Assembly: GCA_050575255.1 (NCBI GenBank) | Contig: JBNZDD010013718.1 | Coordinates: 3,786,540 to 3,850,539, forward strand | Direction: 5' to 3' | Length of the DNA stretch: 64,000 nt | From: Harriotta raleighana | Lineage: Eukaryota | In this document: piece by piece, positions 6,989 to 54,316 of the stretch | How positions within the stretch are numbered: the stretch's first letter is position 1 | Layout of the letters: every line of letters begins with the position of its first letter | Program-made: the position numbers and the translations under genes | Notes under the pieces: generated by a model | Told to the model about the DNA's origin: nothing | Database searches by the model: none | What the model saw: only the letters and a program-made list of their open reading frames with translations

Positions 6989-7722
6989 TTAAGGGGGATG
7001 AACATACAGAGAGATCTGGGTGTTCAAGTAAGCGAATCATTAAAAGTAGCAGGGCAGGTAGATAAGGCAGTAAAAAAGGCATTTTGTGTACTGATCTTTA
7101 TTAGTAGGGGCATAGAGTTTAAGAGTAGGGAAGTTATGGTTAATTTATACAAAACACTGGTTAGGCCTCAGCTGGAGTACTAGGTCCAGTTCTGGGCACC
7201 TTACTCCAGGAAGGACATTAATCACTGGAAAGGGTGCAGAGGCAATTCACGAGAATGATTCCAGGAACCTTAACTATGAAGACAGGTTGGAGAAGTTAGG
7301 ACTTTTCACATTAGAGCAGAGAAGGTTACTCGGAGACCTGATAAGAGGTCTTCAAGATCATGAAAGGTTTCGACAGGCTAGATAGGGAAAAGCTATTTCT
7401 GCTGGTAGGTGTTTCTGTGACCCGTGGTCACAGTCTTAAGATATCTACCAAAAGAAGCAGAGGGGAGGATAGAAGAAATGTTTTCACTCAACAAGTTGTT
7501 CGAATTTGGAATGATCTGCCTGAAAGGGTAGTGAGGTCCGATTCAATAGCAGCTTTTAAGAGAGAACTGGATAGGTATCTGGGGAAGATGGTTTGCAGGG
7601 TTATGGGGAGAAAGCTGGTGATTGGGGTTAATAAAAATGACATTGCTCTGTCAAAGAGCCGACACAGACTCGATGGGCCGAATGGCCTCTTTCTGTGCCG
7701 TAACATTCTATGATTCTATGAT
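6989..7722 (+). mobile_element. CR1-clade LINE, 5'-truncated: ORF2 C-terminal region (stop and frameshifts) plus 3' UTR
   Basis: Peptides QRDLGVQV, LYKTLVRPQLEY, KGFDRLDREKLF, TRGHSLKI, NVFTQQVVRIWNDLP and FKRELDRYL are typical of the CR1 ORF2 end. The 3' UTR has GATGGGCCGAATGGCCT and ends in the (ATTCTATG)n CR1 microsatellite. Confidence 0.95.
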
Positions 7723-12529: not shown

Positions 12530-13600
12530 GAACAACAACAACAACAAAATTCCACTTGTATTGTGCCTTTCATGTCAGGAAGACGTCACAAGGCGCTGGT
12601 CAGTCAATGTTTCAGACCCGAGCTGGGGTCGGGAATGGGGAGGGTGGAGGGTAGGGGGGTTATTAGGGGGGAACCAATGGGGCCATCAAAGTGGAGGGTC
12701 TTGAGGTGGGACTTGAAGGAGGCTAGGGAGGGGCGAGGTGGAGGGAGGGACTACAGAATGAAATTCCAGAGGTTACGGGCAGGGTGGCTGGAGGCTCGTG
12801 CGCCAATGGGTGGATCTGGAGACATGGAGCAGGCTGGGGTCTGCTGAGCAAAGAGGGTGGGCAGGCTTGTAGAGGGTTAAGAGATTGCAGAGGTTGCGTA
12901 GGGCGAGGCCACGGAGGGCTTTGAATGTGAGAACCAGGATCTTTAATCAATTCCTCTGGGTAATGGCGATCACAGGTTCGACGTTGACAGAGTCAAGCCT
13001 GAAGGCTTGAATGAGGGTTTCAGCGGCCTGAGGGGTGAGATAATGGTGGAGTCGAGCAATATTACAGAGGTGAGGAAAAGCAGAGTGGGTCATGGCTTGG
13101 ATGTGGGTGAGGATTGACAGTTGCGGATCAAACAAGAAACGTAGGTTCCTTACTGTCTTGGTGCGGTTGAGTGTGCAATCACAGAGGTTGATGCAACCAG
13201 TGCCTGATGTGTGATGGCACCGGAGCGAGCCAATCAGGAAGGCCTCGGTCCTGTTGTCATTCAACTGTAGAAAGTTAGCTCTCATCCAGGACTTGATGTC
13301 TGACAGGCAGTCTGTCAGGACAGTAGTGGTCCTGAAGTCAAGGATAGAGGCAGAAAGATAGAGTTGGGTGTCATCAGCATACATGTGGAAGTTGACCCCA
13401 TGTCTGCCGTTGATGTCACCAATATTGTGATTTTGTGGCATGTAAATATTGAAAAGCAGGGGACCAAGGACAGAGCCCTGCCGAATGCCACAGGTTACAC
13501 CAGGGGGGCTGGAGGAGAAGCCACTTGTGGTGACAATGTGGAGACGGTAAGAAAGGTAAAACTCAAAACAGGCGAGGCCAGGTCCATAAAGAACAATGCA
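12530..13600 (-). mobile_element. L2-clade LINE, 5'-truncated: reverse transcriptase core to 3' tail
   Basis: Minus strand reads VTCGIRQGSVLGPLLFNIYM, FHMYADDTQLY, CLSDIKSWMRANFLQLN and LCNIARLHHYLTPQAAETLIQAF. It continues into a pyrimidine-rich 3' UTR and a (TTG)n tail at about 12530-12546. Frameshifts are present. Confidence 0.95.
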
Positions 13601-14062
13601 GAGAGAAGATATATTAGAAGCCTAGAGATCCTTGGAACCTAAATACAGTGCTTTTGATGTTCAGATATTCTAGATATTATCTGAACATTGGATATCATCT
13701 ATAAAGACCAGTTTTTTTAGTTTTCCTTCATTTTGCCTTGCCAACGTTTTAGCACTTTTCTTCACTACAAGACTGCTATCAGGAGCTGGCAGAAGTACAA
13801 TTGTCTGTATTCTTTATTTTAACATATTCATTTAGTTCACACCAATTTTATTGATCAGCGCATGGAACCATTATTGCGTACTATGAAACAAGAGGCCAAT
13901 CTTTGCCTTAGAGGGTGAGCCAATTTTATATAATGTGGCGTGCAGGGAGGATTGAAAGCTGAATAGGTGAAATTGTAAACTGTCGACATGGAATTGATCT
14001 TAAGGTCCCTTAAGTCAGACGTTGCCTGGTCATCACCAGAGATAAGCGATTATTTGCTAATC

Positions 14063-17208: not shown

Positions 17209-17712
17209 ATTGATCCTAGCAAGTCTCTAAAGGTTGGCATGGAGCAAAGGAAAAGAAACTCTTAAATTCAGCAAATGCCGATAATGAGCTATCATTACTC
17301 AAATTACTCAGAACACTGATTAGGTTTTAAGTAATGAAGAGGCCAACATGATCAATCATAATCTAGCCTTAGCTTGTCAATATACATTGAAAGGTTAGGT
17401 GGTGCATACATGTCTAAGCAACGTCAGCAAAAATAAATCTTTCTGTCTGTTTGCGGGGGCAACTGTGAAGCTCTGTATACTACAGGATTGATCCTATAAG
17501 GTCTCTAAAGGTTGACTAGTAGGAGAGCATAAAAAAACTCTTAAACTTGGCAAATGCCGATAATGAGCTTTCATTACTTAAATTGCTCTGAACACTGATT
17601 AGGTTTTATCAGGCGAATACGGCGACATGATCAATCATAATGCAACCTCGGGTTGTCGATGTACATCTAAAGGTTAGCCAATTCTAACAGCCTCCGCCCG
17701 TGTCAGCAAAAA
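17209..17712. repeat. Diverged direct repeat pair, about 225 bp units (about 17209-17433 and 17487-17712)
   Basis: Shared ordered blocks TTGATCCTA, GTCTCTAAAGGTTG, AAACTCTTAAA, GCAAATGCCGATAATGAGCT, GAACACTGATTAGGTTTTA, ACATGATCAATCATAAT, AAAGGTTAG and GTCAGCAAAAAT. Confidence 0.92.
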
Positions 17713-18984
17713 TTAGTCAAACTGATCAAAAGCTGACATTCGTCCTCCCAAGGAAATTAATGAACAATTGAAATACTGGTGTCCAAGAATCGCTAATTCA
17801 ATTTTTTTTAAAATCAACTGATCACATAGGTGTTACAACTTTGTGCCCTGAGAATAATAAATTCAGAATGCTTGTTACGTGACAACGAGCATGTCATTCT
17901 CCAGCGAAGGGGGTCATCTGAAAATAAAGCAACGAGACACAAGTCGAAATGATTCCAGAGTTTGTAATTGCTTATTCCGCTAAGTCTGGTTTTATCAAAA
18001 AAAAACCTTTCCTCTTTGTAAACGAATAACCATTTAAATTAAAATTGGATTGTTTTATGCCCCTCTTGTCCTTGAGCGATGAAAATGTAAACTTTATTCT
18101 CATTTAAAAACTGGAGATTCAATCTTCTTTTTGTACACTGCCCATTTGAATAAGTCGACATAGCCTCAGCACTCTCTGGCTTTATTGTTTGACTTGACAG
18201 TAATAATACTCGAGCTGAAATTGTACATGCATTCACTAATTTAGTGATTATTTACATGGCAGCAGGCTGAAATGTTAGCAAACAGATGCTCCCATAAAAG
18301 AGAAATGGAATAAAGGCATTCACTGCATTGTTGAATATTATTTTATACCTTTTTTGTGTCATAAGTGGGCCCATTGCACCCTTCCATTTCCCTGCACATT
18401 TATAATTCATGCTCTGTAATAGCTCCAAATATTTTTTTGGGCGAAACTCAATGTTTGCCAGTTTGAGCTGACAAAACGCTGAGCACGAAATGCACACATG
18501 GTGAGGTGACGGGGAGCTGACCCCAGACTTCTATGCAGCAGCAGTGACACACTTTTCTGTTATTCTTGTACAATACAAATTCATATCTGTGCAAAAATCC
18601 TGTAAACCTGCTTTCTTGACTGTGGATTTAGCAAGCAATACAACTCTTATAATTTCATTGCTTGGATTAATTAAAACACCCAGCTGCACAAGTCCCCTCT
18701 AACCATTACTTTTTGACAGTCGTGCTGTCCCACTTGCTGCCTCAACCTACTCTGGGGATCTTCAGTCTTCCCATACACGTTTAACAGTGCTCACAGCTAA
18801 GCTGCAAATAAATAATTCCTATGTCCAGGATGTCAAATGGATGCATTTTTCCCATGATGAAATAATAAAGTGTGACAATAAATAAAATTTCAAATAATAC
18901 CCCTAAACAAAAAAAATGAAGCTTTTAATTTGTGTCCATTTGTAATTTGACTTTTCTGGAGTAAAAGCTTCAAATCAATTCTCA

Positions 18985-21210: not shown

Positions 21211-21720
21211 AACAACAACAATAAAATTACAGTTGTATAGTGCCTTTCAAGTCGGGAGGATGTCCCAAAGAGCTGAACAGTCAGGTCGGGACCCGAGCAG
21301 GGGGGAAGGGTCGGGGGTAGGGGTAGGGGGAAGGAGAGTGGGAGAGGGGGAAGAGTCAGGGGAGAGCCAAAAGCACGGTCAAAGAGGAAGGTTTTGAGAT
21401 CGGCCTTGAAGGAGGAAAGGGAGGAAGCAAGGGAGGAAGCCGTGAATGTCCTTGAAAATGAGGACAAGGATCTTGAATTCGATCCTCTGGGGGATGGGGA
21501 GTCCGTGGAGACGGGCGAGGGTGGGATTGATGTGATCATGAAGCCTGGTGCGGGAGAGTACACGAGCTGCAGAATTCTGAATGATCTGCAGCCTGTGAAG
21601 GGAGGAGTTGGGAAGGCCGAGGAGGAGAGTTCCCGTAGTCAAGCCTGGAGGTGATAAAGGTGTGAATCAGGGTTTTGGCGGCATGGGGCATGAGGCAGTG
21701 GCGGAGCCTGGCAATAGTAA
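21211..21720 (-). mobile_element. L2-clade LINE 3' fragment
   Basis: IARLRHCLMPHAAKTLIHTFITSRLDYGNS, LHRLQIIQNSAARVL, LHGLPIPQRIEFKILVL and SSFKADLKTFLF, followed by an L2 3' UTR and (TTG)n tail. Confidence 0.95.
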
Positions 21721-22094
21721 TAGATTTCATAACAAATGAAATCTTATTGAGACGTCTCTCTGATATGAAGAGTGAAATATGATTATTATCATTCTGTCGG
21801 TCTCAAAATCAGCCAATTCTTGATGGATTTTAAGATGGCGCAAGTTGTATCAATAGCAGAATAAACTACTTCTTTTGATGATATATACCAGATCATTAAA
21901 GGCAAGAAAGAATTCCTAGCACAGATGCTGCATAAAGATTATTGCCTATTTATCATAGTATTTTTCCACTGTACATATGGATGGTAATGGCTTACCAGAT
22001 ATATTACAGCCGAAAAGTTTTGCATGTGATCTAGATGCAGCAATACATAAATCTGCACTGATAAATGCTGAGAACATAAACGCAGTGCAAGTTA

Positions 22095-50694: not shown

Positions 50695-51895
50695 CAAAAC
50701 ACAAAACACAAAATACTACAGATGCTGGGAATCTAGAACAAAAACAGAAGTTGCTGGGGAAACTCAGCGGGTCAGGCAGCATCCATGGAGAAAGGAAAGT
50801 GAGTCAACATTTTGGGTCCATGACCCTCCGTCGGAACTGGGGCATGTTTGGAGGGAAAAGTTTTTAAGGACATTGGGAGGGGGTGGCGGTGGGGAGGGAG
50901 GACATGGAAGACAAAGGAGACAAAGAAGACAAAGGAAAAAGAGTGTGTAAACTGATGGGTTGAAAATGTGATAACGATGTACAGGTGAGAAACAAAAGGG
51001 GGATGGGTTTCAACGAACCTGGGGAGAAGAGGTGTTTAGTGGTGACAGAACAGACAAAACACCAGAGAGGCAGGGGGTGTCTGGAGTTATGATTGTGACG
51101 GGGAGCTCTATGGTCTGAAGTGGCTGAAATCGATGTGGAGGCCAGAGGGCTGCAGAGTCCTCAGTAGATGGATGAGGTGCTGTTCCTCAAGCTTTCGCTG
51201 TGGGTCACTGGAACAGCGCAGGAGACCATGGATGGAAAGGTCAGCCTCTGAATGTGAGCGCAAGTTGAAATGGAGAGAGACTGGAAGATCAGGGTTGACC
51301 TTCCGTACAGAGTGAAGGTGCTCTGCAAATCGGGTTCCCAATCTGCGCTTAGTCTCCCCAATCTAGAGGAGGCCACATCGTGAGCAGTGGATGCAGTGTA
51401 CTACATTGGTGGTAGTATATGTGAATCGCTGCCTCACATGGAAGCTGTGTTTTTGGCCCCTGGAGAGTGGTTTGGGTGCAGATGAAAGGGCAGGTATTGC
51501 ATCTCCTGCGATGGCACAGGAAGTGCCAGGGGAAGGAGAGCAGCTGCGGCTGCTGACGGCGGAGTGAACCAAAGAATCCTGGAGGGAGCGGTCCCTTCGG
51601 AATGCGGAGAGGGGAGGGGAAGGAAATATATCCCTGGTGGATGGGTCACATTGCAGGTGTCGGAAGTTTCTAAGGATGATATGTTGAATATTGAGGCTGG
51701 TAGGGTGGTAAGTGAGGACCAAGGGGACCCTATCACGATTCCGGGATGGGGGGACGGGGTGAGGGCAGAGGTGTGGGAAATCGGACGGACACGGTCAAGG
51801 GCCTTCACTACCATGGTTAGTGGGAAGCCTTGGTCGAGGAAAAATGAAGACATCTCAGTCACTCTGGCATGAAATGTTGCATCGTCAGAGCAGAA
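50695..51895 (-). mobile_element. Penelope-like retroelement, 5'-truncated: RT thumb/linker, GIY-YIG endonuclease and terminal sequence; pseudogenised
   Basis: CSDDATFH..MSSFFLDQGFP, LVLTYHP, FRRDRSLQDSLVHS, NVVHCIHCSRCGLL*IGETKRRLGTRFAEHL (YIG tyrosine replaced by a stop), HFN..HS and RKLEEQHLI..LQPSGL. The terminal segment GATGCTGCCTGACCCGCTGAGTTT..CCAGCA lies on the minus strand. Confidence 0.92.
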
Positions 51896-53928
51896 AGAGA
51901 AACTCCTGTCTCTTTCTGAGAAGGAATAGAAAATACACCACAAAGTGCAACAAAATGGGACCGATTGCTTTCTGCTGTTCTCCCATTTTTAACCAGATGG
52001 ATTTTTGATAGAATGGGTCTCCTCCACAGGACATGTTGATGAATTGTATATTTAGGAAGGTCAGCAATTTTATTCTTAAGAAACAAATTCAAATCTCACA
52101 ATGTTAATAATTGTCATATTGCCATGAAGTCATATTGTGACAAGCCCAGCCTCGTCCTCAGTTACCTGTTCTCATTATTTACTTTTAAAAAAGACATATC
52201 AAAATATCATTCCATGTTACCTCTAACTACTGTAGACAGGAAATGTCAGCATGCTGTGACTTTAACGATAGGTGAATTGACTCTGAGAATGCATTTGATG
52301 TTGTCACACAAGAGTATCACACACAGGGGATAACACTATAAGATTTTAACCCATCAGTTGAAGAAATGACAAGAGTAGAAATATATGGCCATTGAAAGTT
52401 GTACTGTTCACTGAGTTCGAAATTTCCTGATGGTGTAAACATTTTTTTGTAAATGTGTGAGTTGTCATTCATGTTTGTGGATGGGTATTCCCAAACCAGT
52501 TAGTTGAACTTCTCTCAACTTCACCAAGCTATGCTATAAGTTTCCTGCTGCATTCGCTCTGCTTTATTCTGCTATGCCTTCTGGTTGGTGACTGCTGTAA
52601 CAATGTCTGTCTTAATGGAGGTCGATCCAGCACAATCCCAACAACTACAGCATACAGTATTGATTCTGTCAGACTTTGTTCATCCATTCGTGAGTTATAA
52701 CCATACCACTGTAGTCTGATGCTGATATACCAATGTACCATTATCAAGCAGCTTCACTCAGTTCTGGATACCTTTATTCTTACCTTGATCTGACCAGCTC
52801 ATCCTTTTGATCTTCTGCAGATATTTAAGTTGAAAGGCATCAACTTTTTATCTGGCTGTCTCACTTATAGCCAAATCTCTTCAACGCATGATCTGGACTA
52901 GAATCATAATAGAATTTTTGATGCTGATTCAAACTTCAATGGTGATCTCTTTTCTTTTGCTTTATTAGTATCCGTTTTTACATCTGCTGGTCTTAAGCCA
53001 GCAAAAAAAAATAGATACCACTACCGTCTGTTCAATTAGTTCGCCATATCGATCAAATCCAATCATTTTTTTACCTGTAAGGACAAAACATCCTTTTGAC
53101 TGCTTCATAAAATAATTAGATTGCTCTTTCTTGAACTATAGATTTATGACAAAACCATCAGCCATTCAGCGTGAGTGGGGTTTATATAATAATATAGTGC
53201 CACAGTGAGGCAGTTATAATATACATAAGCCCTGTAAGTGACACTCTAAAATGCCACAGTGCTAATTCAGGAATTGCATTTTTCTATGTTGAATTCCTAA
53301 GATACTTTGACAACTTAATCCAAATGGCATATTCTCTGAAAATAGTAAGAAATAGATGCTAGTTCCACTCTGATCCCTTTGAACAGAATAGGATGTTTTC
53401 TCTTTATATGTAAATTATAGTTATACAATAGGTTTTGCTGCATGTGGAGAAGTTGCTCTTCAATGAAAGAGTAACTTATAACAGAGCCTTTTATTTTCTT
53501 GGATTTTATTTGTGTCTGTATAATATTCTAGGTCATTTGTGCAGTTTCATTTTTTGTCTTTTTATTCTGGTGACCTGTTCTTCTTGTTTCTGATGTCTGG
53601 TCTGAAAATCTGTTCTGTTCTAATTTGGTTCCATCAATGTAGCCACAGATAGTGCACCAGATCTTATCTATAGAGCTTTACCCTTCACTGTACCTACTTC
53701 ATTTAACATAACTGTCAAAATAAAACATATGTGGGTGGAAGAAAGACATTCTGAAAGTACAGGAAAATATTAGCTAATCTCTCCAGTCAGCTAATTCATT
53801 GAATTGCAAAAAAATGCTGTAAAATTAGAGCAAAATGAACACAATTAAGATTGCACTGCATTTGCTATAGAATTATAAAAAATGCAGTTATGCAATTTCC
53901 ACATTTTATACCACCAGCGTTTTTCAGT

Positions 53929-54316
53929 GCTATACACGTATGCTGTGGCATAATTAGTTGGATCAATTTAATAATTATAGTATTCTTTGAAATTGAAACA
54001 GAAACTTATCATATCACTAAAAACATCTCAAAGCCGTTCACGGGATTTTCATCAAAGTGTAGTGACTGTGTATTTGTAGACCGAAGAGCAGCCAATTTGC
54101 ACAGAGTGTCTCACAAACAGCCNTGCTATACACGTATGCTGTGGCATAATTAGTTGGATCAATTTAATAATTACAGTATTCTTTGAAATTGAAACAGAAA
54201 CTTATCATATCACTAAAACATCTCAAAGCGGTTCACGGGATTTTCATCAAAGTGTAGTGACTGTGTATTTGTAGACTGAAGAGCAGCCAATTTGCACAGA
54301 GTGTCTCACAAACAGC
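53929..54316. repeat. About 194 bp near-identical tandem duplication flanking the single N at 54123; probable assembly overlap. Each unit contains a minus-strand SINE fragment.
   Basis: TGCTATACACGTATGCTG...CACAAACAGC repeats on both sides of the N, with three substitutions seen. Confidence 0.9.

What the first reader, a model, noticed from the sequence alone, without database searches (positions are those of the whole stretch)
17209..17712. Old tandem pair of ~225 bp elements with block-wise conservation and two palindromes
Seen: two direct copies about 278 bp apart. Blocks of 9-20 bp are identical (GTCTCTAAAGGTTG, GCAAATGCCGATAATGAGCT, GAACACTGATTAGGTTTTA, ACATGATCAATCATAAT, GTCAGCAAAAAT). 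The spacers between them are largely unalignable but keep nearly the same length. Both copies keep the palindromes TAATGA-N4-TCATTA and ATGAT-CA-ATCAT and a CpG, in CpG-poor DNA. It resembles none of the other repeats here. Inference: neutral decay would scatter changes evenly, so this pattern suggests selection on both copies. Candidates are a duplicated homeodomain/TALE enhancer with fixed site spacing, an exapted ancient repeat, or a structured ncRNA pair.
Basis: partly seen in the sequence, partly recalled or inferred. Interest (0 to 1): 0.7.

Follow-up and report, generated by a model that had tools for sequence, protein, structure and literature searches.

The report
Ancient tandem enhancer pair near NR2F2
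Two side-by-side copies of a 226-letter non-coding stretch lie between the genes NR2F2 and MCTP2 of what is likely a chimaera (ghost shark) and recur in sequencing runs of six other organisms; they are likely an old duplicated gene switch (enhancer) for NR2F2, a known kind of element in an unusually tidy form.

Summary
The pair is real: 17209-17434 and 17487-17712, 173 of 228 columns identical. Identity is clumped beyond shuffles (p 0.00015) and neutral simulations (p 0.001). The genome holds only these two copies; no Rfam family, shared fold, reading frame or paralogue beside NR2F1 was found. The window lies in the NR2F2-MCTP2 interval of a likely holocephalan, 301 kb from NR2F2 and 135 kb from the orthologue of a tested zebrafish nr2f2 hindbrain enhancer. 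Runs of four closer organisms differ by 2-3% in the element against 5-8% in flanks. A more distant organism (F) holds both copies in one contig (8% changed, linker 21%), already as different from each other as here, so the duplication is older than that split and each copy has since been held nearly still. Best reading: a tandemly duplicated conserved enhancer, likely of NR2F2, with Maf half-site and homeodomain-type sites. Activity, tissue and target are untested. A known kind of element; moderate interest.

The parts
17209..17434 (+). copy 1 of the duplicated non-coding element
   Evidence: 18 substitutions and a 6-base gap in organism F
17487..17712 (+). copy 2 of the duplicated non-coding element
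   Evidence: 11 substitutions in F over 17487-17618, table cut beyond
17435..17486 (.). 52-base linker; no likeness to the DNA after copy 2 or before copy 1; changes faster than the copies but keeps its length
   Evidence: p 0.97, 0.69; F 11 of 52 changed; G has 80 letters where the window has 79 across 17400-17478
17280..17343 (.). best-kept core of copy 1 (chosen after seeing the data): TAATGA-N4-TCATTA and GAACACTGATTAGGTTTTA blocks plus the copy-specific spacer
   Evidence: no change in F over 64 bases
17559..17618 (.). matching core of copy 2
   Evidence: 2 changes in F over 60 bases
17348..17359 (.). overlapping TGATNNAT (loose PBX-HOX) sites on both strands and ATCAATCA / ATCAAT (PBX1- and CUT-class-like, recalled); same at 17627-17638
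   Evidence: consensus TGATNNAT from PMC4489388 passages; F breaks the plus-strand site and the palindrome, keeps the minus-strand one
17423..17434 (-). AT-rich Maf half-site (TGCTGAC with A/T-rich 5' flank); same at 17702-17713
   Evidence: background 0.008 per 226 bases; consensus from passages of 10.64898/2026.02.05.703983; F changes one flank base and keeps the core
17281..17290 (-). AGCTCATTAT, a homeodomain-type site (POU6F-like, recalled, from no call); same at 17560-17569
   Evidence: background 0.001 per 226 bases; motif picked after seeing the sequence
17209..17214 (-). ATCRAT (CUT-class-like, recalled) at the start of each copy; same at 17487-17492
   Evidence: in F and G the copy-2 site changes to the other form of the same consensus

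Best explanation
The stretch is an old head-to-tail duplication of a conserved non-coding element in the interval between NR2F2 and MCTP2, and both copies likely act as a distal enhancer of NR2F2. Shown: two copies only; non-coding; place in the locus; slower change than flanks and linker; both copies present and already about a fifth different in a distant organism. Inferred: a roughly 278-base unit duplicated, the copies drifted apart early, then each was held by selection, so the pair would give either a doubled dose of one input or two slightly different outputs. Inferred inputs: a large-Maf factor at the AT-rich TGCTGAC half-site with homeodomain factors (PBX or CUT class at ATCAATCA, TAAT-binding factors at TAATGA and CTAATC). 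Hindbrain or other neural tissue is my first guess for where it acts, at no better than 35%. NR2F2 rather than MCTP2 as target is about 80% given an enhancer.
For: Locus: NR2F2 exons at contig 3.502-3.506 Mb (best PDB match COUP-TF II, E 5e-96), MCTP2 exons at 3.916-4.034 Mb; element 301 kb from the first NR2F2 coding exon and 112 kb beyond the last MCTP2 coding exon. The interval holds the orthologue of the zebrafish-tested hindbrain enhancer nr2f2_8394 135 kb away and several non-coding stretches with paralogues beside NR2F1. Constraint: element against flanks B 11/519 vs 115/2104 (p 0.0008), E 13/520 vs 161/1966 (p 1e-6), D 16/546 vs 107/1997 (p 0.018), C 15/479 vs 24/351 (p 0.019). F: copies 29/358 vs linker 11/52 (p 0.009); 23 of 24 columns that differ between the copies in the core are unchanged in F; the copies differ at 27 of 125 compared columns in F and 24 here. 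Length is kept (4 gap columns in 228). Three changes in F that hit a named motif keep its core (17350, 17430, 17489). Single-copy, no RNA family, no frame.
Against: No functional data: no reporter, chromatin or contact evidence. Organisms B-E share the branch to the window's species, so the four tests are not independent; against the right flank alone D is not significant (2.9% vs 4.0%, p 0.33), and the right flank may itself be conserved. Blocks are not significantly better kept than spacers in F after removing circular sites (p 0.11). The strict hindbrain syntax (TGATNNATKR plus CTGTCA) is absent. Most motif names are recalled and were picked after seeing the sequence. Only 40 of the 61 substitutions of F were listed (none beyond 17618); G rests on two 151-base records of depth about 4. 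F and G lack 6 bases of the longest block and G has lost the 5' block of copy 1. No bony-vertebrate orthologue could be sought. The organisms are coded, so the age of the splits is unknown.
Confidence: 0.72

Rival explanations
1. The identical blocks are partly the work of gene conversion between neighbouring copies, on top of weaker constraint. If F and G are successive outgroups, the window's lineage made copy 1 like copy 2 at the 6-base gap and at four single sites.
For: At the four sites inside the copies where F and G share a letter that B and E do not (17396, 17489, 17496, 17521) and at the 6-base gap, the window's two copies agree with each other.
Against: 76% of columns are identical anyway, so four of four is expected about a third of the time if F and G are sisters. 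No homologous column carries the same change in both copies of F, and the copies differ as much in F as here (27 vs 24 of 125). Conversion does not explain slower change than the flanks.
Confidence: 0.12
2. The pair works as RNA: two modules of a long non-coding transcript or a pair of small structured RNAs.
For: Runs X18-X20 that hold it are guessed to be RNA, and X18 has a 3,379-base contig across it; the tool marks this as a guess, not as transcription shown. The minus strand of copy 1 folds at z -2.1.
Against: The other three folds are at z -1.1, -0.8 and 0.0 and share no structure. Consensus folds have 2 of 37 and 1 of 43 pairs changed on both sides. Changes in F break 2 of 7 pairs of the best shared hairpin (17363-17399) without compensation. 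Rfam: two chance matches, E 1.1 and 5.8. No RTGATGA C box.
Confidence: 0.1
3. It is a neutrally decaying local duplication or a remnant of a low-copy mobile element.
For: Old local pairs do occur: a second pair of like size and age lies on the NR2F1 side (80.7% over 254 bases). Three of five clumping statistics did not beat neutral simulation.
Against: That other pair shows no clumping (p 0.29). Slower change than flanks in four organisms and than the linker in a fifth. Two copies in 1.1 Gb (the search may miss diverged copies); no terminal repeats or tail seen.
Confidence: 0.03
4. It is a pair of exons, live or eroded, for example of a bystander gene lost from the NR2F2 desert.
For: A FAM172A exon remnant is reported in the NR2F2 desert (PMC7530604, passages and supplement). 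The gap in F and G is a multiple of three. One minus-strand frame is open for 29-36 codons.
Against: Differences between the copies fall 10/6/12 on the three codon phases; all six frames have stops, at different places in the two copies. No Pfam match for 4 of 4 open pieces. No translated or DNA match in 610 kb on the NR2F1 side (best E 0.45 and 0.15).
Confidence: 0.03

Closest known systems
Conserved non-coding elements of the NR2F2 regulatory block, e.g. nr2f2_8394 (Grice et al. 2015, PMC4489388; abstract, passages and supplement rows seen)
   Same: Same interval, similar size, single-locus, loose PBX-HOX-type site.
   Different: A different sequence, 135 kb away; doubled in tandem; lacks the strict PBX-HOX and MEIS pair; untested; no bony-vertebrate orthologue shown.
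Duplicated CNEs (dCNEs) from whole-genome duplication (described in PMC2020477 and PMC2781166, passages seen; McEwen 2006 itself not held)
   Same: Two related non-coding copies, both kept, with shared blocks and diverged spacers.
   Different: dCNEs lie beside paralogous genes; these two lie 52 bases apart at one gene, and no copy was found beside NR2F1.
Shadow enhancers born by duplication (Ness et al. 2026 preprint, PMC13345019; abstract and passages seen)
   Same: Duplication as the route to a second enhancer of one gene; reported for 18.3% of fly and 33.9% of mouse shadow sets.
   Different: Overlapping activity is not shown here; these copies abut and may act as one unit; homology runs over the whole 226 bases (fly matches there had a median of 18 bases).

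Membership tests
Conserved non-coding element (CNE) | non-coding | tested here: met
Conserved non-coding element (CNE) | changes more slowly than neighbouring DNA across species | tested here: met
   not independent tests; not significant for D against the right flank
Conserved non-coding element (CNE) | lies near a developmental regulator | tested here: met
   NR2F2 at 301 kb
Conserved non-coding element (CNE) | shared between cartilaginous and bony vertebrates (pan-gnathostome set) | not testable with these tools
   no vertebrate genomes other than the own one are searchable; run labels are coded
Enhancer | drives expression in a reporter; open, acetylated chromatin; contact with the promoter | not testable with these tools
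   no assay or chromatin data
PBX-HOX plus MEIS hindbrain syntax (Grice 2015) | TGATNNATKR site | tested here: not met
   only the loose TGATNNAT, twice per copy
PBX-HOX plus MEIS hindbrain syntax (Grice 2015) | CTGTCA within 100 bases | tested here: not met
   none in either copy; only TGTCA, at non-homologous places
dCNE from whole-genome duplication | a copy beside the paralogous gene | tested here: not met
   profile of the two copies finds nothing (best E 2.3) in 610 kb from NR2F1 to MCTP1; the same method finds paralogues for 4 of 4 control stretches, three of them picked because they had one. The other side of NR2F1 was not searched.
Shadow enhancer pair | same target and overlapping activity | not testable with these tools
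   needs reporters and deletions
Known RNA family (snoRNA, microRNA, other Rfam) | match to a covariance model | tested here: not met
Structured RNA | shared fold with compensatory changes | tested here: inconclusive
   two sequences only; changes in F lean against
Interspersed repeat | many dispersed copies | tested here: not met
   2 matches in the genome; pattern search 28 hits against 21 for the control, only the 2 own copies exact
Ancient exapted repeat (UCON, Eulor, MER121 type; names recalled) | match to a Dfam model | not testable with these tools
   no Dfam library on hand

The most novel reading that the evidence does not exclude
The pair is older than the split of chimaeras from sharks and rays (if F and G are elasmobranchs, which is not known): an enhancer of NR2F2 doubled head to tail, the copies diverged by about a quarter in a short early window and both then froze, copy-specific spacers included, for some 400 million years (date recalled). 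It would be a natural two-version experiment in enhancer grammar with distinct outputs per copy, and one or both copies may sit unrecognised in the human MCTP2-NR2F2 desert.
Probability: 0.3. Interest if true: 0.58.

Novelty: new member of a known kind. Interest (0 to 1): 0.38.

Why it matters
NR2F2 is a dosage-sensitive developmental regulator (recalled) whose desert holds many conserved elements. A pair of abutting, same-length copies that differ at 51 sites, each version itself conserved, tells which bases an enhancer cannot lose and whether a local duplicate is kept for dose or for a new task; that can be tested with two reporters and a few swaps. It does not reveal a new mechanism: conserved elements near NR2F2 and enhancers born by duplication are both described.

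Tried and rejected
Rfam near the element and over the window: nothing above chance. Folding of both strands and consensus folds: no shared structure. Coding reading: an apparent third-position pattern by eye did not hold up (10/6/12; Pfam 0 of 4). Two pattern hits on the NR2F1 contig looked like a paralogue but lie in a repeat remnant inside a recent 2.27-kb duplication; 8 of the 26 non-own pattern hits were checked with the profile, best E 0.014, none extended. An old tandem pair on the NR2F1 side at a similar distance is unrelated in sequence (8 of 8 comparisons p > 0.24). PRT_C family search rang nowhere; MCTP2 was mapped with proteins instead. The test 'columns identical between copies are better kept in F' (p 0.0015) is partly circular, since 9 of 14 changes at differing columns equal the other copy's letter; corrected p 0.11. 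No RNA holder listed on record. Earlier findings: 4 look-ups, none returned. Papers: words of the element gave 13 unrelated papers (listing only) and none in the 10 supplement files of PMC4489388 that belonged to an nr2f2 element; searches (listings) showed no title or abstract start on this pair; the library lacks most subscription papers and CNE databases (CONDOR, UCNEbase, VISTA) could not be queried, so a catalogued orthologue is not excluded. One search did not give sources for the PBX1, CUT and POU6F consensus; these stay recalled. The interval was not fully annotated: 150 top-ranked of 7,985 frames were read by eye and 17 scanned in Pfam, so a small gene nearer than MCTP2 is not excluded.

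Full report
Observation. The window holds two direct copies at 17209-17434 and 17487-17712 with a 52-base linker. They align at 173 of 228 columns with 4 gap columns; transitions and transversions are equal (26 and 25), as expected if the free sites are near saturation. Identity is clumped: 111 bases lie in identical runs of 9 or more, against 53 in shuffles (p 0.00015) and 63 in neutral simulations with realignment (p 0.0013); window variance agrees (p 0.028) while three other statistics do not (p 0.14-0.30). The spacers are about half identical, not unalignable, and palindromes of this strength are common by chance.

Copy number. DNA searches of the 1.10-Gb own genome with copy 2 and with the core return only these two copies. 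A 19-base pattern with two mismatches gives 28 hits against 21 for its control; 8 of the 26 outside hits were examined and none extended. These searches can miss diverged copies.

Locus. The window is contig C13718:3,786,540-3,850,539. A nuclear-receptor gene with three coding exons lies at 3.502-3.506 Mb on the plus strand; its second exon matches COUP-TF II best, and a sister gene with NR2F1-like residues (recalled) and an MCTP neighbour lies on C13604. MCTP2 exons run on the minus strand from 4,033,781 to 3,916,249. Of 17 MCTP2 proteins laid on them (out of 120 returned), the elephant shark one is 76% identical, nine shark and ray ones 57-62%, seven bony-vertebrate ones 54-59%: the genome is likely a holocephalan. 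The element is 301 kb from NR2F2 and 112 kb beyond MCTP2. A motif from the zebrafish hindbrain enhancer nr2f2_8394 (PMC4489388, supplement rows: 60 of 60 GFP-positive embryos in hindbrain at 48 h, human hg19 chr15:96,259,185) finds a clear orthologue at 3,669,028, so this is the counterpart of the human MCTP2-NR2F2 desert. The interval was not fully annotated.

Conservation. Twenty of 23 listed runs, from 10 studies, hold part of the stretch; one may be the source. Six runs of six other coded organisms were laid. In B, C, D and E the element differs by 2.1-3.1% and the laid flanks by 5.4-8.2% (p 1e-6 to 0.019); single contigs of B and E span both copies. These tests share a branch, and D is not significant against the right flank alone (p 0.33). 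Organism F has one 3,379-base contig over 17207-17720 with 61 substitutions and 12 gap letters; 40 places were listed, all up to 17618. There the copies differ at 29 of 358 bases and the linker at 11 of 52 (p 0.009). A core picked after the fact has 2 changes in 124 bases against 27 in the other 234, and 23 of its 24 copy-specific columns are unchanged. The copies differ at 27 of 125 compared columns in F and 24 here: distance between copies is about 0.27, between orthologues about 0.09, so the duplication and most divergence came before the split from F. Organism G gives two 151-base records of depth about 4: the core of copy 1, and a piece from copy 1 into copy 2 with 80 letters where the window has 79.

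F and G lack 6 bases at 17270-17277, inside the longest block, so spacing is not fixed. F loses the CpG there and breaks the ATGAT-CA-ATCAT palindrome of copy 1 while keeping ATCAATCA. G has lost the 5' block of copy 1. With circular sites removed, blocks are not significantly better kept than spacers (8 of 201 against 12 of 148, p 0.11). Constraint is thus on a core of each copy, spacers included.

Mechanism. Each copy carries an AT-rich Maf half-site (consensus from passages of 10.64898/2026.02.05.703983; background 0.008 per 226 bases), two overlapping loose PBX-HOX sites (consensus from PMC4489388), ATCAATCA, two ATCRAT, two TAATGA, CTAATC and two AAAGGTT. The names PBX1, CUT and POU6F for some of these are recalled, and the motifs were chosen after seeing the sequence. 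The strict hindbrain syntax is absent. Three changes in F that hit a named motif leave its core. I read the pair as a duplicated distal enhancer, likely of NR2F2 (0.72); factors, tissue and target are inferred and untested.

Rivals. Gene conversion may have shaped some blocks if F and G are successive outgroups (0.12). An RNA role rests only on runs guessed to be RNA and one fold at z -2.1; Rfam, the other folds and the changes in F lean against (0.10). Neutral decay (0.03) fails on conservation; an unrelated old pair near NR2F1 shows no clumping. An exon remnant (0.03) fails on phase, stops and searches, although such a remnant is reported elsewhere in this desert (PMC7530604, passages and supplement).

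Comparison. It meets the testable marks of a conserved non-coding element. It is not a whole-genome-duplication dCNE: no copy in 610 kb on the NR2F1 side, where the same method finds paralogues of four control stretches. Enhancer birth by duplication is reported as common (PMC13345019, abstract and passages). Ten paper searches (listings, with passages of the papers named) did not show this pair; databases of CNEs and supplements of preprints could not be seen and may hold an orthologue.

Verdict. Real, constrained and old; a new member of a known kind. Interest 0.38; up to 0.58 if it proves older than the chimaera-shark split with different outputs per copy (probability 0.3).

Noticed in passing
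L110:1362-1872 (G000:C13604:719361-719871): A second old head-to-tail pair, period 262, 80.7% over 254 columns, about 285 kb 3' of the NR2F1-like gene; unrelated in sequence, two copies among the loci held, no significant clumping. Conservation not tested.
   Followed up: partly
G000:C13718:3.50-4.03 Mb: NR2F2 (plus) and MCTP2 (minus) face each other, as the NR2F1-like gene and its MCTP neighbour do on C13604; in human both are on one strand (recalled), which would mean a local inversion in one lineage.
   Followed up: partly
L011:2360-2590 (G000:C13718:3669028) and L115:9464-9645: Orthologue of the tested zebrafish hindbrain enhancer nr2f2_8394, with a paralogue on the NR2F1 side (E 1e-14).
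   Followed up: partly
G000:C13718:3527930, 3537666, 3617056, 3638859, 3687609: Five single-copy non-coding stretches with collinear paralogues on the NR2F1 side, 76-84% identical over 53-276 columns: likely dCNEs.
   Followed up: partly
window 17713-18760: The right flank changes less (4.0-6.6% in D, B, E) than the left flank (6.9-11.6%), so a further conserved stretch may follow the pair.
   Followed up: no
L076/L077 (G000:C13604:857124-862413): Recent 2.27-kb tandem duplication, about 96% identical, made of repeat remnants.
   Followed up: partly
window 7116-7713, 12947-13621, 21379-21802, 51108-51988, 53928-54316 and many 50-200-base pieces: Retroelement-like remnants (CR1-, L2- and Penelope-like by recalled motifs), a dispersed SINE-like family and a 195-base tandem pair at 97%.
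   Followed up: no
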